Part shown: positions 1,196 through 4,806 of the stretch, piece after piece
Numbering within the stretch: the first letter of the stretch is position 1
Layout of the letters: each line of letters starts with the position of its first letter
IMG/VR virus record: IMGVR_UViG_2874945390_000012
Length of the DNA stretch: 33,382 bases
Strand: one strand, 5' to 3'
Source of the DNA: a virus
Lineage: Duplodnaviria > Heunggongvirae > Uroviricota > Caudoviricetes
The notes under the pieces: model-generated
What the model was told of the DNA's origin: nothing
Seen by the model: only the letters and a program-made list of their open reading frames with translations
The model's database searches: none
Position numbers and translations under genes: made by a program

Positions 1196-1762
1196 TTAAT
1201 CGCCTGGTCTGAACGCTCTCACCTCGTCCAGTGTGGGCAACAGAGAAAGTTGTTCTTTCATCTCCCGCTGACAGCGATAAATCTCATCGTTGCGCTCAAC
1301 AATGGCCTGTATCATCGCTGTGGCCAGTTCCTCAAGTTCCTGCGTCGTCAGCTGCACCTGCTGATTATCCGCATCACTCCACGTCATATTTGTTTGTGCC
1401 GCGACAGATTTTGCCAGCATGACCACCGGGGACAGGCGGCCCAGTGAGTTGGGGCCAGCATTCCAGATACGACCGTTCCATTCAAACGTGAACGGCTTCG
1501 CCTCCTGTTCTGTGCGCCATGCTTCAATTCCCTGACGTCTGGCCTCTCTGGCCGCTTCCAGCATTTCTGGTGTCACAGTGAATGGGGCTATCTCACCCCA
1601 TTTGCCGCTTTGCAGTTCCTGCCAGATTTGCTGACCCGTCGGAGCGACATCATCAGCGGTGGCTGTGTAGGGGACTGCCTGGTCCCTGTCGTCAAAAAAA
1701 ACGTCACAGTCTACTGCGCCACTTTCGGTATAACGGGGATTAATGATTTTTTTAATTTCCAC
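1196..1762 (-). CDS. Hypothetical protein; a tail-fiber chaperone/assembly role is suggested only by position
   Basis: ORF with a GTG start at 1762 preceded by SD GAGGAA (6-nt spacer); last gene of the second fiber module. No recognisable Tfa C-terminal motif. Confidence 0.4.
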   Translation of the reverse strand: MEIKKIINPRYTESGAVDCDVFFDDRDQAVPYTATADDVAPTGQQIWQELQSGKWGEIAPFTVTPEMLEAAREARRQGIEAWRTEQEAKPFTFEWNGRIWNAGPNSLGRLSPVVMLAKSVAAQTNMTWSDADNQQVQLTTQELEELATAMIQAIVERNDEIYRCQREMKEQLSLLPTLDEVRAFRPGD

Positions 1763-1772
1763 GGTGCATTCC

Positions 1773-2126
1773 TCACGATGTGCGAATAAAAAGCCCAAGC
1801 ATTGCGCCAGAGACATGAGCATCCGGCACCCCGGACAGGGCGCAATATGACCCCGGTAATGAATGCTCTGAACATCCCGTAATGAAAAATTGTGGGGATG
1901 CTATATACGTTCCGGTGGGAGTACTGGGCACTGAAATCCCCACCGGTCCCAGTCGTGAGCCTCTGTATGACTGCCCCCTGACAAGTCTGATGACTTTATC
2001 ACCGTCAGCTTCTCCCTGGTACGCAGCAATAATCAGCCCGCCAATGTCAGGGTCTCCCCATCCGTTGCGGACAGAGCTCGCCACGATTCTGTAAATAATA
2101 TCTTCTGTGGTTATATTTATTTTCAC
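1773..2126 (-). CDS. Hypothetical protein (117 aa), downstream of the Stf-like fiber
   Basis: ORF MKINITTEDIIYRIVASSVRNGWGDPD...; its start overlaps the stop of the upstream fiber ORF (ATGA arrangement). Confidence 0.4.
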   Translation of the reverse strand: MKINITTEDIIYRIVASSVRNGWGDPDIGGLIIAAYQGEADGDKVIRLVRGQSYRGSRLGPVGISVPSTPTGTYIASPQFFITGCSEHSLPGSYCALSGVPDAHVSGAMLGLFIRTS

Positions 2127-3171
2127 CCAGTCAGTCTGGATATGGGCCAGTAGCAGTAGCGGGTGTGATAAATGGGGCCGTTAATGCCGTAAAAAGTAAG
2201 GGATTTGGCTCTGTACCGCGGTTCTGTTGTCTCAGGGCGTGCATCAGTCCACCGGATGCTGAGCACCCCTTCAAACCGTGTGTCGGGTATGATGCCCTGG
2301 CGGCCAGCAACGGAATACTCACCTGGCAGCGCATTCCTTACCCAGGCCAGGAAATCACTCTTAGTGTCAAAACGGATAACATCTTCAGGCAGAAAAGCAC
2401 ACCCAAAGCCGAATGCGCCGGGTATCGCCAGACGGCCTTTTGTCCGGTCGTAAATGTCGCTCTGTGCTTCCATCGTGGCCGCACTTTTCAGCCCCAGATT
2501 ATCCCGGGACTTCTGTTGTGCCTTTTCGCCTGCTGCTGCGATTTCAGACAGATGGTTAGCCGTTTTCAGAGTGCCGGTCAGCGCAGCATCAATGTCATTT
2601 TTGGCCTGTTCTGCTGCGCGGGCATAACCTGCGGCTGCCTGTGCACGCTGACCGGATAAGACGGCGTTTTTCCCCGTGCTTTTCACGTCTTCCGCTGTGG
2701 CCTTTCTGTTCTCAGCTGTGACGGTTGCATCCTGTCGGGCTTTCTCCGCAAAACGTTGTGCATCATCACGGGCCGTTGCGGCTGCCGTCACATCCTGCGC
2801 CGTCTGCCGTGCGTTTCCGGCTGCGGCCCGGCACTCTGCTGCGCCTGTTGCGCCAGCTCTTCGAATTTCTTCAGGGATTCCGGACGCAGGTCAATATCAG
2901 TTGCGCCCAGAAAATCATTCAGCGAACCGTCCGTTGAATCTTCATAAACGCGGATGACACCGATTTCTGAAAGGCGCTGTGTGCTTTGTGTCAGGCGAAC
3001 GCTGTACACACCCGGCAGAACGGGGAAGTCATATTCCCCGTTCTGTGTGGTGACATGGCTGAAAACACTTTTCAGAATCCCTGCACGGTTGTGCATGGAG
3101 ATTAGTGTAATGGTTGCGCCGCCCAGCGGTTCTCCCGTGGGCGTTTTAATCACACCTTTAAGCTGCGGCAT
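2123..3171 (-). CDS. Lambda Stf-like side tail fiber, split across two reading frames (2788..3171 N-terminal domain; 2123..2791 Ala-rich shaft and C-terminal domain)
   Basis: The N-terminal ORF (MPQLKGVIKTPTGEP...GEYDFPVLPGVYSV...VYEDSTDGSLNDFLGATDIDLRPESL) resembles the N-terminal domain of E. coli prophage side tail fibers (StfR-like, from memory). The downstream frame continues the Ala/Gln-rich repeat upstream of its GTG start (…AGNARQTAQDVTAAATARDD…). The two ORFs overlap as GTGA. Confidence 0.6.
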
Positions 3172-3703
3172 CGGGACGCTCCGGCCAGTTGATGGCGTTA
3201 TATGTGGCTTTATCTGTGATGGTGCTGAAATCCATCGCCTGCAGTGATTTCGCGTAAATACGGTACGCTTTCAGCTTTTCTTTATCTTCGTCGCTGATTA
3301 ACCCCAGCAGCAGGTCTTCTTCCCATTCCCCTGTCCGGGCACTGACCTGAGCCAGAAGGGCATCACGCTCATCTTCCGCTTTGAGTCTGTAGTCAAAGAC
3401 AAATTCATCATTGCGGTAAAACCAGTAACCCGGCGCGGTAATGCGGCGGTTGGCGGTAATATCAGGAACTTCAATAACACTGGCGTTACGGGGTTCAATG
3501 CCTGTCACATCCTTACCGACCCACACCACGCGCCCGTCTCCGGTGTAAACCATTTTTATGGTGTCACTGGCAAAGTTCTTCTGTTCTTCATACCAGTTTT
3601 TGCCGTCTTCCGAAAAAAGCCAGGTGACATCATACTGTTTTGTCAGCTGATATTGTTCCGCGGTTTTCGGATTACCTGCCGTAATATTTTTTAAATGCAA
3701 CAT
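3158..3703 (-). CDS. Tail fiber assembly protein (Mu U-like, lambda Tfa family)
   Basis: N-terminus MLHLKNITAGNPKTAEQYQLTKQYDVTWLFSEDGKNWYEE closely matches Mu U as I recall it; C-terminus ...NAINWPERP is the Tfa-type motif. Confidence 0.85.
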   Translation of the reverse strand: MLHLKNITAGNPKTAEQYQLTKQYDVTWLFSEDGKNWYEEQKNFASDTIKMVYTGDGRVVWVGKDVTGIEPRNASVIEVPDITANRRITAPGYWFYRNDEFVFDYRLKAEDERDALLAQVSARTGEWEEDLLLGLISDEDKEKLKAYRIYAKSLQAMDFSTITDKATYNAINWPERPDAAA

Positions 3704-3705
3704 TG

Positions 3706-4806
3706 TTAAATACTCGCTACGTTATACCAGGTGCCATTAATCAGTTTTTGCAGCGGTCGGTAATACACGCCGTTGACGTTATCCGCTGAGTTACGGCCGG
3801 TATCCGATATCGATATCCCTGACAGCCCGTGTCCCGAAGGTGAGCGAAATGTCCACGAAACGGTGTTACTGCCGGGGGTGTAATACATTTCATAACCATA
3901 CCGCACATCCTGCACGCCACCATTTCGCTGCTGGTAACGGGCATCAAAGTTTCCGTAGTCTGACGGTGTTACCCGTCCTGTAACGTTTACAGCTTTATTA
4001 CTCTGGATACTGCCACTCTGAAAACGCAACACATGCACGCTATTGGCATAAACATCCAGCAGGCCATCACCATTCTGTTTAAATCCGGTGTCATTATCAC
4101 CAAGAACAATTGAATTCCCCCCCAGGGCGTTCTGAACGCCGATACCCAGCGCACCATTGACCTGCGAACCACCGCCAACAGACACTTTATGCGACATGGA
4201 TATTTCACCCGTCCGCAGATTAATGGTGAACGGGCGCAGGGGACCAATATCGCCATTCTCGCCCTGACCTTCACTGGTGGGAATAAGGTGCAGGCACTCT
4301 TCCGAACGACGAAAAATCAGGCCAAAAGCTTCGTTGAAAATCCTCAGCGCATTAACACCACGGATTTTCAGCTCTCCTGTCATCGTGCCGCCTGATTGTT
4401 TTATGACTTTCAGTGCATCTGCAAAATCTGTTGCACTCTCTTTGCCGAGAATACCGCGCACAAACGCACTGAGCGGTGTTAATGCCATTGTGTCTTTGCC
4501 GGTAAAATAAGGGAATGTATTATTCTGACCGGTTAATCCGGCAATAGCTCCGGCTGAACCACTGTTCGTAATAAACAGTTTTTTCAGCGCTGTCATAATC
4601 TGGTCGGTTGTGTTTTTATCCGGTTTGATATTTGCCTGCCGGAGTATTTCCAGTAATTCAGACTGAATAATATTAAACCAGTCCGGCCCCGGATACGTGG
4701 GCGGAATACCGTTCCCGCCTTCGGTGAAATAAAGCGTTGTTTTGCTTAATTCAGCCGCGACAGGTGGCATTACCGGCACACCCGTCGGGTTATCCACATA
4801 AAACAT
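3706..4806 (-). CDS. Tail fiber protein (Mu S-like)
   Basis: N-terminus MFYVDNPTGVPVMPPV...PDWFNIIQSELL and C-terminus ...QKLINGTWYNVASI resemble Mu S; sits between the gp48-like gene and the U-like gene. Confidence 0.8.
   Translation of the reverse strand: MFYVDNPTGVPVMPPVAAELSKTTLYFTEGGNGIPPTYPGPDWFNIIQSELLEILRQANIKPDKNTTDQIMTALKKLFITNSGSAGAIAGLTGQNNTFPYFTGKDTMALTPLSAFVRGILGKESATDFADALKVIKQSGGTMTGELKIRGVNALRIFNEAFGLIFRRSEECLHLIPTSEGQGENGDIGPLRPFTINLRTGEISMSHKVSVGGGSQVNGALGIGVQNALGGNSIVLGDNDTGFKQNGDGLLDVYANSVHVLRFQSGSIQSNKAVNVTGRVTPSDYGNFDARYQQRNGGVQDVRYGYEMYYTPGSNTVSWTFRSPSGHGLSGISISDTGRNSADNVNGVYYRPLQKLINGTWYNVASI

What the first reader, a model, noticed from the sequence alone, without database searches (positions are those of the whole stretch)
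1196..4806. Two tandem tail-fiber modules and no gin or invertible segment
Mu carries S/U and S'/U' in an invertible G segment flipped by Gin. Here a Mu S-like fiber plus U-like assembly protein (3158-4806) is followed, in the same orientation, by a second fiber with a lambda Stf-like N-terminal domain and two downstream ORFs (1196-3171); no serine recombinase ORF is visible. This looks like a mosaic host-range region where a second receptor-binding module was acquired instead of an inversion switch, or the remnant of one.
Basis: partly seen in the sequence, partly recalled or inferred. Interest (0 to 1): 0.6.

Follow-up and report, generated by a model that had tools for sequence, protein, structure and literature searches.

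The report
Decayed dual tail-fibre cassette, Mu-like prophage
A Mu-like prophage carries two different tail-fibre-plus-chaperone gene pairs in a row and no DNA-flipping switch; this is the normal layout of its whole lineage (and of Shiga-toxin phage phiP27), and in this copy the second fibre gene is broken by two frameshifts, so the finding is real but ordinary.

Summary
On the minus strand, a Mu S-like fibre (3706-4806) and a Mu U-like chaperone (3158-3703) are followed, in the same orientation, by a second module. No Gin-type recombinase and no gix-like site occurs anywhere in the 33 kb.

The second module is not "a fibre plus two ORFs". It is one fibre gene (1773-3171) with a lambda Stf-type N-terminal domain, split into three ORFs by a 1-nt and a 4-nt deletion. 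A DUF4376 chaperone gene (1196-1822) follows it. Relatives 98-99% identical carry an intact 467-468-aa gene.

The layout gp47-gp48-fibre1-Tfa-fibre2-[DUF4376]-com-mom recurs without gin in E. coli prophages and in most of 26 IMG/VR loci. The four-gene cassette is also in phage phiP27 (L54-L57). It is therefore a lineage-typical, constitutive two-fibre design, not the remnant of an inversion switch.

This copy sits in dsbG of a 5.1-Mb chromosome (CP026836.1). It also has broken baseplate genes, so it is a decaying prophage.

One inference goes beyond the annotation. The fibre-2 N-terminal domain matches ring-binding anchor domains solved in Ur-lambda Stf and in the neck "collar spike" of myophage XM1. 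Fibre 2 may therefore be a collar-anchored accessory fibre rather than a second baseplate fibre. Interest is low.

The parts
4810..5394 (-). Mu gp48 / YmfQ-type baseplate wedge gene. It lies immediately upstream of fibre 1 and marks the start of the host-range region.
   Evidence: Pfam Phage_Mu_Gp48 E 1.8e-29; 31% identical to Mu gp48.
3706..4806 (-). Fibre 1: Mu S-like tail fibre, 366 aa, intact.
   Evidence: phrog_6859 E 1e-162. PDB Mu tail fibre protein S 5yvq/9ki1 E 3e-34 for residues 1-82. The identical protein occurs in a second assembly. The N-terminus is conserved and the C-terminus variable among relatives.
3158..3703 (-). Tfa1: Mu U/U'-like tail-fibre assembly chaperone, 181 aa, intact.
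   Evidence: Pfam Caudo_TAP E 7.9e-27. 40% identical to Mu U and 48% to U'. 72% to phiP27 L55 and 85% to pPE4 gp68. Its stop overlaps the fibre-2 start by 14 nt.
1773..3171 (-). Fibre 2 pseudogene: a lambda Stf-type N-terminal collar domain, an Ala/Gln-rich rod and a C-terminal receptor-binding region. It is split into ORFs 2788-3171, 2123-2791 and 1773-2126.
   Evidence: Pfam PF08400 E 3.7e-25. All three ORFs hit phrog_2636 in consecutive profile segments. It is colinear with intact 467-468-aa genes in L001, L002, L012, L015 and L019. PDB: Ur-lambda Stf N-terminal domain 9e7m E 3.5e-10; XM1 collar spike 7kjk E 2.2e-7.
2826..2832 (-). Frameshift 1: loss of one G from a G run (CCGGGGCC to CCGGGCC on the minus strand). 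It ends the first ORF after 127 aa.
   Evidence: It is seen only in this genome among the sequences compared, and read-level confirmation is lacking.
2129..2138 (-). Frameshift 2: loss of 4 nt from a tetranucleotide repeat (CAGACTGACTGACTGG to CAGACTGACTGG). The resulting TGA stop overlaps a GTG.
   Evidence: The same deletion is present in three other assemblies (L013, L031, L037) belonging to two allele clades, each with an intact sister.
1196..1822 (-). DUF4376 gene, the probable cognate chaperone of fibre 2; intact. The likely true start is the GTG at 1762, 8 nt after the fibre-2 stop and preceded by GAGGAA, which gives 188 aa.
   Evidence: Pfam DUF4376 E 3.2e-16. 68% identical to phiP27 L57 from residue 21 onward. 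Sequence read. 188-aa homologues are annotated. DUF4376 proteins are tail-fibre chaperones in Alteromonas phages V22 and A5 (PMC7289586, PMC10579305). Identity co-varies with the fibre-2 C-terminus.
886..1071 (-). com, the translational activator of mom. It follows the fibre cassette directly, at the position where Mu has gin.
   Evidence: Pfam Zn_ribbon_Com; phrog_13819 E 2e-41; 71% identical to Mu Com.
240..965 (-). mom, the DNA-modification gene and the last gene before the prophage right end (~113) inside dsbG.
   Evidence: Pfam Mom E 2e-75. 94.6% identical to Mu Mom. DNA 87% identical to Mu over 188-1061. A dsbG fragment lies at 1-162, with ahpCF beyond it.

Best explanation
The region is the host-range end of a Mu-like transposable prophage whose lineage encodes two different fibre-plus-chaperone pairs in tandem, with no G-type inversion switch.

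Shown:
- Pair 1 is a Mu S-like fibre plus a Mu U-like Caudo_TAP chaperone.
- Pair 2 is a fibre with a lambda Stf-type N-terminal anchor (PF08400) plus a DUF4376-type chaperone.
- The four genes are co-oriented and tightly packed. Starts and stops overlap or abut, and there is no convincing terminator between them.
- There is no gin and no gix.
- In relatives, the N-terminal anchor of each fibre is conserved, while its C-terminal receptor-binding part varies with its chaperone.
- In this window, fibre 2 is inactivated by a -1 and a -4 frameshift, and the prophage has further lesions in baseplate genes.

Inferred:
- In intact relatives all four genes are expressed together from the late operon.
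- Fibre 1 mounts on the gp47/gp48 baseplate wedge, as in Mu.
- Fibre 2 mounts through its collar-type N-terminal domain on a ring of the tail or neck, as Stf does in Ur-lambda and gp40 does at the neck of myophage XM1.
- Virions would then display two receptor specificities at once, instead of alternating between two as Mu does.
- The copy in this window is a decaying relic that can no longer make fibre 2 and probably cannot make tails.
For: Gene identities.

One gene split by two frameshifts: the three ORFs hit consecutive segments of phrog_2636. They align with intact 1407-nt genes in 98-99%-identical prophages.

The -4 deletion is seen independently in L013, L031 and L037.

No gin or gix. 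No recombinase is annotated in the colinear complete VL40 prophage.

Lineage-wide layout without gin: E. coli prophages and 26 IMG/VR loci, none with a Gin hit at E<=1e-5. Fibre 2 is an intact 443-1040-aa ORF in most of them.

The same four-gene cassette is found in phiP27 L54-L57 and in vB_Apl-pPE4 gp67-70.

Chaperone role of DUF4376: PMC7289586 and PMC10579305.

Co-variation of each fibre's C-terminus with its chaperone.

Anchor-domain homology with solved structures. Their locations come from PMC12617516 (collar of 12 StfN at the gpV/gpM junction) and PMC10457771 (gp40 N-terminal domain on the neck proteins gp4/gp5; XM1 gp1 is structurally like Mu gp36).

Defective prophage: the gp44-like hub is 278 aa against 356 aa. 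There is a ~40-nt deletion at the gp45/gp46 junction and a ~56-nt deletion in the hub gene, each at a point where the alignments on either side overlap by 9-14 nt. Several 1-nt deletions are also present.
Against: - No expression, virion-composition or adsorption data exist for any member, so simultaneous display of both fibres is inferred.
- The attachment site of fibre 2 on a contractile tail is unknown. Sequence searches with the neck proteins of this lineage found Mu gp36 but no XM1 neck protein.
- The 1-nt G-run deletion and most other 1-nt homopolymer deletions are unique to this assembly and could be sequencing errors.
- Several relatives keep only a 113-156-aa stub of fibre 2, so the second fibre is dispensable, at least for prophage maintenance.
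Confidence: 0.8

Rival explanations
1. Remnant of a Mu-type invertible G segment: the lineage once had gin and inverted alternative fibre genes, and lost the invertase and one gix site, freezing the segment.
For: Mu, SfMu and Sp18 have invertible host-range regions at this position (PMC4406740; PMC2669165). com-mom is 87% identical to Mu at the DNA level, so exchange with true Mu has occurred next door.
Against: No Gin similarity in six frames (best E 0.48). No gix-like sequence. Homology to Mu ends inside com, with nothing from gin or the gin-com spacer. Both modules are co-oriented. Fibre 2 carries its own start codon and its own N-terminal anchor domain of a different family, rather than being a C-terminal alternative to a shared constant part. 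The layout is identical in all relatives and in the integrase phages phiP27 and pPE4.
Confidence: 0.04
2. The frameshifts are sequencing or assembly artefacts, and the strain really has an intact, functional second module.
For: Most small indels relative to relatives are single-base losses in homopolymers, all in the same direction. This is typical of long-read consensus errors. The exact 127-aa and 222-aa products occur on this one contig only.
Against: The 4-nt deletion is also present in three other independent assemblies. 350-aa products ending at that point are deposited from several Shigella species. The ~40-nt and ~56-nt deletions in baseplate genes lie where the flanking alignments overlap by 9-14 nt, which is unlike base-calling errors.
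Confidence: 0.1
3. The 4-nt tract is a functional switch or a tolerated gene split. Slippage at the GACT/CTGA repeat would toggle fibre 2 between a full-length form and a 350-aa form plus a separately translated 117-aa tip (the stop and start overlap as GTGA), giving phase-variable host range in place of inversion.
For: The same -4 state occurs in two allele clades, each with an intact sister 98-99.9% identical. This implies at least two events or transfers. The -4 form creates a TGA stop overlapping a GTG.
Against: There are only two or three repeat units, far fewer than in known phase-variable tracts. The carriers are Shigella-type genomes, where prophage decay is common. In this window a second frameshift and broken baseplate genes accompany it. 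The GTG is simply the first possible start after a stop.
Confidence: 0.06
4. The second module does not belong to the Mu-like phage. It would be a fragment of a lambdoid prophage (stf region) that landed next to it.
For: The N-terminal domain is ~42% identical to side-tail-fibre N-termini of lambdoid and Stx phages.
Against: It lies inside the prophage, between Tfa1 and com-mom, 1 kb from the right end. Its start overlaps the Tfa1 stop. There are no flanking lambdoid genes. The position is conserved in all relatives.
Confidence: 0.02

Closest known systems
Bacteriophage Mu G segment (S/U, S'/U', gin) and its relatives in SfMu and Sp18
   Same: Same position in the genome, after gp47/gp48 and before com-mom. 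Fibre 1 and Tfa1 are homologues of S and U/U'. The purpose is the same: more than one receptor specificity.
   Different: No invertase, no gix, no inverted gene set and no shared constant N-terminal segment. The second specificity is a separate complete gene of another fibre family, in the same orientation. Both would be expressed together rather than alternately.
Stx2e phage phiP27 genes L54-L57 (NC_003356), and vB_Apl-pPE4 gp67-70
   Same: Same four genes in the same order after a Mu-type baseplate. Identity to phiP27: fibre 1 58%, Tfa 72%, fibre 2 37% over the full length, DUF4376 68%.
   Different: Those phages use an integrase and are not transposable. Their baseplate proteins are only distantly related (gp47 29%). 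They have no com-mom, and their fibre 2 is intact.
Lambda (Ur-lambda) side tail fibre Stf with Tfa
   Same: The N-terminal ~90-residue collar domain is homologous (PDB 9e7m E 3.5e-10; Pfam PF08400). It is followed by an Ala/Gln-rich rod and a distal receptor-binding part.
   Different: The host virion here has a contractile Mu-type tail, so the gpV/gpM junction used in lambda would be under the sheath. The chaperone is DUF4376-type, not a lambda Tfa (Caudo_TAP). The C-terminal part resembles fibres of large E. coli myophages at ~33%.
Vibrio myophage XM1 collar spike gp40 (PDB 7KJK)
   Same: Ig-like N-terminal domain plus coiled coil, alignable over ~180 residues (E 2.2e-7). XM1 is a contractile-tailed phage whose gp1 connector protein is structurally like Mu gp36.
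   Different: The XM1 distal part is a tailspike. Similarity of the N-terminal domain alone is weak (E 7e-4). Neck attachment in the present lineage is untested.
Alteromonas phages V22 gp26/gp27 and A5 gp8/gp9 (fibre plus DUF4376 chaperone)
   Same: A fibre gene immediately followed by a gene with a C-terminal DUF4376 domain, shown there to be required for fibre maturation.
   Different: Distant sequences and a different fibre N-terminus. The chaperone role here is inferred from the domain, the position and co-variation.

Membership tests
Mu-type invertible host-range switch (G/Gin, P/Pin, C/Cin class) | Serine DNA invertase gene adjacent to the fibre genes | tested here: not met
   tblastn with Mu Gin against the whole window, both strands: best E 0.48. 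None in 26 related loci at E<=1e-5. None annotated in the VL40 prophage.
Mu-type invertible host-range switch (G/Gin, P/Pin, C/Cin class) | Pair of inverted gix-type crossover sites bracketing the variable fibre parts | tested here: not met
   No match to the 34-nt Mu gix at <=7 mismatches, and none to the 26-nt core at <=8. Only short, mostly imperfect inverted repeats, none bracketing 1196-3171.
Mu-type invertible host-range switch (G/Gin, P/Pin, C/Cin class) | Two alternative C-terminal fibre segments and chaperones in opposite orientation, sharing one constant N-terminal segment | tested here: not met
   All six ORFs are on the minus strand. Fibre 2 has its own ATG and its own N-terminal domain of another family.
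phiP27-type tandem two-fibre cassette | Order S-like fibre, Caudo_TAP chaperone, PF08400 fibre, DUF4376 gene, co-oriented, directly after gp47/gp48-type baseplate genes | tested here: met
phiP27-type tandem two-fibre cassette | All four reading frames intact | tested here: not met
   Fibre 2 carries -1 and -4 frameshifts relative to intact homologues. The other three genes are intact.
Lambda Stf-type side tail fibres (PF08400) | N-terminal collar domain | tested here: met
   Pfam PF08400 E 3.7e-25 against a cut-off of 26.6 bits, score 88.9. PDB 9e7m E 3.5e-10.
Lambda Stf-type side tail fibres (PF08400) | Lambda Tfa-type (Caudo_TAP) chaperone encoded downstream | tested here: not met
   The downstream gene is DUF4376 with no Caudo_TAP hit.
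Lambda Stf-type side tail fibres (PF08400) | Collar of N-terminal domains around a tail ring in the virion | not testable with these tools
   Needs cryo-EM or multimer modelling. Precedents: PMC12617516 and PMC10457771.
DUF4376 tail-fibre chaperones | C-terminal DUF4376 domain, gene immediately downstream of its fibre | tested here: met
   Pfam E 3.2e-16 over residues 90-199. Probable start 8 nt after the fibre-2 stop.
DUF4376 tail-fibre chaperones | Required for folding or trimerisation of the fibre | not testable with these tools
   Only co-variation with the fibre-2 C-terminus supports it. Experimental precedent is in V22/A5.
Mu-like transposable prophage | MuA/MuB-type transposition genes, Mor, Mu-type head, tail and baseplate genes, com-mom, insertion without an integrase | tested here: met
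   The annotation of the 98%-identical, colinear VL40 prophage lists transposase, AAA ATPase, Gam, Mor, gpT head, gp45-gp48 and Com/Mom, and no integrase. gp47, gp48, Com and Mom were confirmed on the window. The prophage is inserted in dsbG.

The most novel reading that the evidence does not exclude
In this Mu-like lineage (and in phiP27-like phages) the second fibre is not a baseplate fibre. It would be a collar or neck-anchored accessory fibre, homologous in its anchor to lambda Stf and XM1 gp40, so that a Mu-type myophage displays two receptor-binding systems at two places on the virion as a constitutive alternative to G inversion. In addition, the recurrent 4-nt slippage tract in its gene may act as a crude on/off switch for the distal tip.
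Probability: 0.15. Interest if true: 0.55.

Novelty: new member of a known kind. Interest (0 to 1): 0.22.

Why it matters
It corrects the reading of this locus: one broken fibre gene plus a chaperone gene, not three small genes. It also shows that the absence of gin is the normal state of a widespread E. coli/Shigella Mu-like lineage, not a loss.

For phage biology, the useful point is a testable hypothesis. Temperate Mu-type myophages may achieve dual receptor specificity by adding a Stf-type, ring-anchored fibre with a DUF4376 chaperone as a portable cassette. This is relevant to host-range prediction and to engineering of fibres on contractile-tailed phages and tailocins.

For this particular copy nothing functional is expected.

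Tried and rejected
- Inverted-repeat search over 1-7000 and a gix pattern search over the whole window: nothing.
- Gin tblastn: nothing.
- DNA comparison with the Mu right end for a gin remnant: homology stops inside com.
- Scan of GTDB species-representative genomes with the fibre-2 N-terminal domain: no confirmed locus, probably because only close relatives are found and there is one genome per species.
- PDB sequence searches with the putative neck proteins of the lineage, to link them to XM1 gp4/gp5: only the Mu gp36 connector was found, so the neck-attachment idea could not be tested.
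- Rfam scan of the window: no RNA family.
- The promoter/terminator scan gave counts at or below shuffle expectation. It shows only that no convincing terminator separates the four genes.
- The phiP27 genome paper (PMC127862) is not held, so what its authors said about L54-L57 could not be checked. The record's annotation was used.
- Structure prediction was not run. The intact fibre 2 sequences come from loci that the tool does not accept, and monomer models of trimeric fibres would not settle the attachment site.
- Technical failures without consequence.

Full report
**Context.** The window is almost entirely a Mu-like prophage on the minus strand.
- The transposase gene starts at the window's last base. 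MuB-like, head, tail and baseplate genes follow toward low coordinates.
- An exact protein look-up places the window on CP026836.1 (GCA_002950135.1, 5,106,737 bp).
- Window 1-162 is the 5' part of dsbG (DsbC_N domain), with ahpC and ahpF beyond it. The prophage right end therefore lies at about position 113 inside dsbG.
- The closest complete relatives are prophages of E. coli VL40 and FDAARGOS_943, 98.3-98.6% identical over 110-5400.
- The VL40 prophage is colinear over the whole window. Its annotation lists repressor, ner-like, transposase, AAA ATPase, Gam, Mor, lysis, terminase, portal, gpT head, sheath, tube, tape measure, baseplate gp44-48, two fibre modules, Com and Mom. It has no integrase and no invertase.
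- The closest isolated phage is Klebsiella phage Kp4866-3, at only ~70% DNA identity over the head genes. The lineage is therefore Mu-like but is not Muvirus proper.

**The observation.** Reading the minus strand downstream of baseplate J/gp47 (5379-6455) and gp48/YmfQ (4810-5394), the region contains:
- Fibre 1, 3706-4806, 366 aa. Its first ~82 residues match the solved Mu tail fibre protein S (E 3e-34). tblastn to Mu S gives 38% identity at the N-terminus and 31% at the C-terminus.
- Tfa1, 3158-3703, 181 aa. It has a Caudo_TAP domain (E 8e-27) and is 40% identical to Mu U and 48% to U'.
- Three ORFs of 127, 222 and 117 aa (2788-3171, 2123-2791, 1773-2126).
- A 208-aa DUF4376 ORF (1196-1822).
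- com (886-1071) and mom (240-965).

**The second fibre is one gene, broken.**
- The three ORFs hit a single PHROG fibre family, phrog_2636, at profile positions 1-118, 269-442 and 456-567.
- In VL40 and FDAARGOS_943 the same stretch is one 1407-nt CDS of 468 aa.
- A three-way alignment shows three differences in the window:
  - It lacks one G of a G4 run at ~2829-2830.
  - It lacks one unit of a tetranucleotide repeat at ~2131-2136 (minus strand CAGACTGACTGACTGG to CAGACTGACTGG).
  - It has an in-frame 3-nt allelic difference at ~2296, shared with close relatives L012 and L013.
- Two assemblies that carry the identical DUF4376 or fibre-1 protein (L012, L015) have intact 467-aa and 468-aa fibre 2 genes.
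- The 4-nt deletion is also present in three other assemblies (L013, L031, L037), and 350-aa products of this cluster are deposited from Shigella flexneri and S. sonnei. It is therefore a real mutation.
- The 1-nt deletion is unique to this genome and cannot be distinguished from a consensus error without reads.

**The prophage is damaged elsewhere.** Relative to VL40 and L015, the window shows:
- A ~40-nt deletion at the gp45/gp46 junction and a ~56-nt deletion in the gp44-like hub gene (278 aa instead of 356). At each, the alignments on either side overlap by 9-14 nt.
- Uncompensated 1-nt deletions in a 203-aa late gene (14209, 14293).
- Uncompensated 1-nt deletions in a gp16-like gene (26005, 26065).

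This copy is therefore a decaying prophage.

**No inversion system.**
- Mu Gin finds nothing in six frames of the whole window (best E 0.48).
- The 34-nt Mu gix sequence has no match at up to 7 mismatches. Its 26-nt palindromic core has none at up to 8.
- Inverted repeats in 1-7000 are short, mostly imperfect, and do not bracket the modules.
- DNA similarity to Mu's right end is limited to com-mom (188-1061, 87%), part of Tfa1/fibre 1 (72-75%) and a weak 71-nt patch. It stops inside com, so no trace of gin or the gin-com spacer remains.
- The only genes between the second module and the prophage end are com and mom. By comparison with VL40, only ner-like and repressor genes lie beyond the other window edge.

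**The layout is lineage-typical.**
- Other E. coli prophages of this lineage show the same order. Fibre 2 is intact, carries other C-termini (one with an adjacent SGNH hydrolase gene), or is truncated to a stub. None has gin.
- Of 26 IMG/VR loci found with the fibre-2 N-terminal domain, 24 show gp47-gp48-fibre1-Tfa-fibre2-[DUF4376]-com-mom, or as much of it as the contig holds. The other two (L040, L041) hold only fragments. None of the 26 has a Gin hit.
- Of the 24 loci where the fibre-2 start could be read, the ORF is 443-1040 aa in 16, runs off the contig in 3, is frameshifted in 2 and is a 156-aa stub in 3.
- The N-terminal parts are conserved: fibre 1 mostly 80-100%, fibre 2 mostly 87-100%. 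The C-terminal parts diverge to 31-66%, and each chaperone diverges with its fibre. DUF4376 is 96-99% identical where the fibre-2 C-terminus is 94-98%, and 64-70% where it is 31-48%.
- The same four-gene cassette sits after the Mu-type baseplate genes of Stx2e phage phiP27 (L54-L57) and of vB_Apl-pPE4 (gp67-70), both integrase phages. Identity to phiP27 is 58%, 72%, 37% and 68% for the four proteins.

The cassette is thus a portable two-fibre host-range module that has sat, annotated, in sequence records for years.

**What the parts are likely to do.**
- DUF4376 proteins encoded just after fibre genes are the required fibre chaperones of Alteromonas phages V22 and A5 (PMC7289586, PMC10579305).
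- Here the probable start is the GTG at 1762, 8 nt after the fibre-2 stop and preceded by GAGGAA. This gives a 188-aa protein, as in phiP27 L57.
- The fibre-2 start overlaps the Tfa1 stop by 14 nt.
- No convincing terminator separates the four genes. Co-expression from the late operon is a reasonable inference.
- The fibre-2 N-terminal domain is homologous to residues 1-94 of Ur-lambda Stf (PDB 9e7m, E 3.5e-10). Twelve copies of that domain form a collar around the gpV/gpM junction and carry four trimeric fibres (PMC12617516).
- With its following coiled coil, it also matches the collar spike gp40 of Vibrio myophage XM1 (PDB 7kjk, E 2.2e-7). The Ig-like N-terminal domains of gp40 bind the head-completion and tail-terminator rings at the neck, and XM1 gp1 is structurally like Mu gp36 (PMC10457771).
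- In a contractile tail the tube is sheathed. I therefore infer that fibre 2 of intact relatives is a ring-anchored accessory fibre, possibly at the neck, rather than a second set of baseplate fibres.
- This could not be tested. Sequence searches with the lineage's neck proteins found Mu gp36 but no XM1 protein.

**Comparison with the known.**
- It works toward the same end as the Mu G segment, namely more than one receptor specificity, but by a different logic. There are two complete, co-oriented modules expressed together rather than one of two alternatives chosen by Gin.
- It fails all three defining features of an invertible switch and should not be filed there.
- It is a member, in decayed form, of the phiP27-type tandem cassette.
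- Other E. coli/Shigella Mu-like phages do have invertible regions: SfMu (PMC4406740) and Sp18 (PMC2669165). Both solutions therefore exist among Mu-like phages of these hosts.

**Verdict.**
It is correct except for the anatomy of the second module.
The region is a mosaic two-module region, but it is not a remnant of a switch, and it is not functional in this copy.
- Novelty is low. The arrangement is already annotated in many genomes and in a phage sequenced in 2002.
- The only element with some reach is the untested idea that a Stf-type collar fibre decorates Mu-type myophages. A minor curiosity is that the same 4-nt slippage recurs in two allele clades.

Noticed in passing
window 2129-2138; L013, L031, L037 versus L012, L032: The same 4-nt loss in the GACT/CTGA repeat of fibre 2 occurs in two allele clades. 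Each clade has an intact sister 98.3-99.9% identical. This implies recurrent slippage or transfer. The shortened form makes a TGA stop overlap a GTG (GTGA) in front of the last 117 codons.
   Followed up: partly
window 6846-6854, 7662-7800, 14209, 14293, 26005, 26065: Further lesions relative to VL40 and L015: a ~40-nt deletion at the gp45/gp46 junction; a ~56-nt deletion plus 1-nt deletions in the gp44-like hub gene (278 aa against 356 aa); and paired uncompensated 1-nt homopolymer deletions in a 203-aa late gene and in a gp16-like gene. The prophage is defective, or the 1-nt changes are consensus errors.
   Followed up: partly
window 188-1061: com-mom is 87% identical to phage Mu at the DNA level (Mom 94.6% at the protein level), while baseplate and fibre proteins are only 30-48% identical to Mu's. 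The modification module has therefore been exchanged recently with true Mu-type phages. Homology ends inside com.
   Followed up: partly
window 1140-1175: Two GATC sites about 19 nt apart lie in the 125-nt spacer upstream of com. This is reminiscent of the Dam/OxyR-controlled mom promoter region of Mu, although no DNA similarity to Mu is detectable there.
   Followed up: no
L042 (Klebsiella phage Kp4866-3, OK490420.1) 29405-32802: The nearest isolated phage has a different tandem design: two fibres that both start with a Mu S-like N-terminus (251 aa and 585 aa), separated by a 291-aa ORF. It has no Gin, Com or Mom hit.
   Followed up: partly
L009 (E. coli STEC719) 2649-5226; L033, L035, L036; L006, L008: Fibre 2 is a hot spot of change in the lineage. 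One relative has a 301-aa PF08400 protein followed by an SGNH/GDSL hydrolase gene. Several keep only a 113-156-aa N-terminal stub directly before com.
   Followed up: partly
window 1-162 and ~113: The prophage interrupts dsbG, with ahpC and ahpF just beyond. Near the end are three copies of an AA(A/G)TTATTCAAGATA-like 15-mer (125-196), which may be transposase-binding end repeats.
   Followed up: no
L005 (vB_Apl-pPE4, PP818812.1): A phage recorded as infecting Actinobacillus pleuropneumoniae carries fibre and chaperone genes 67-85% identical at the protein level to those of this E. coli/Shigella prophage. This is unexpectedly close for such different hosts.
   Followed up: no
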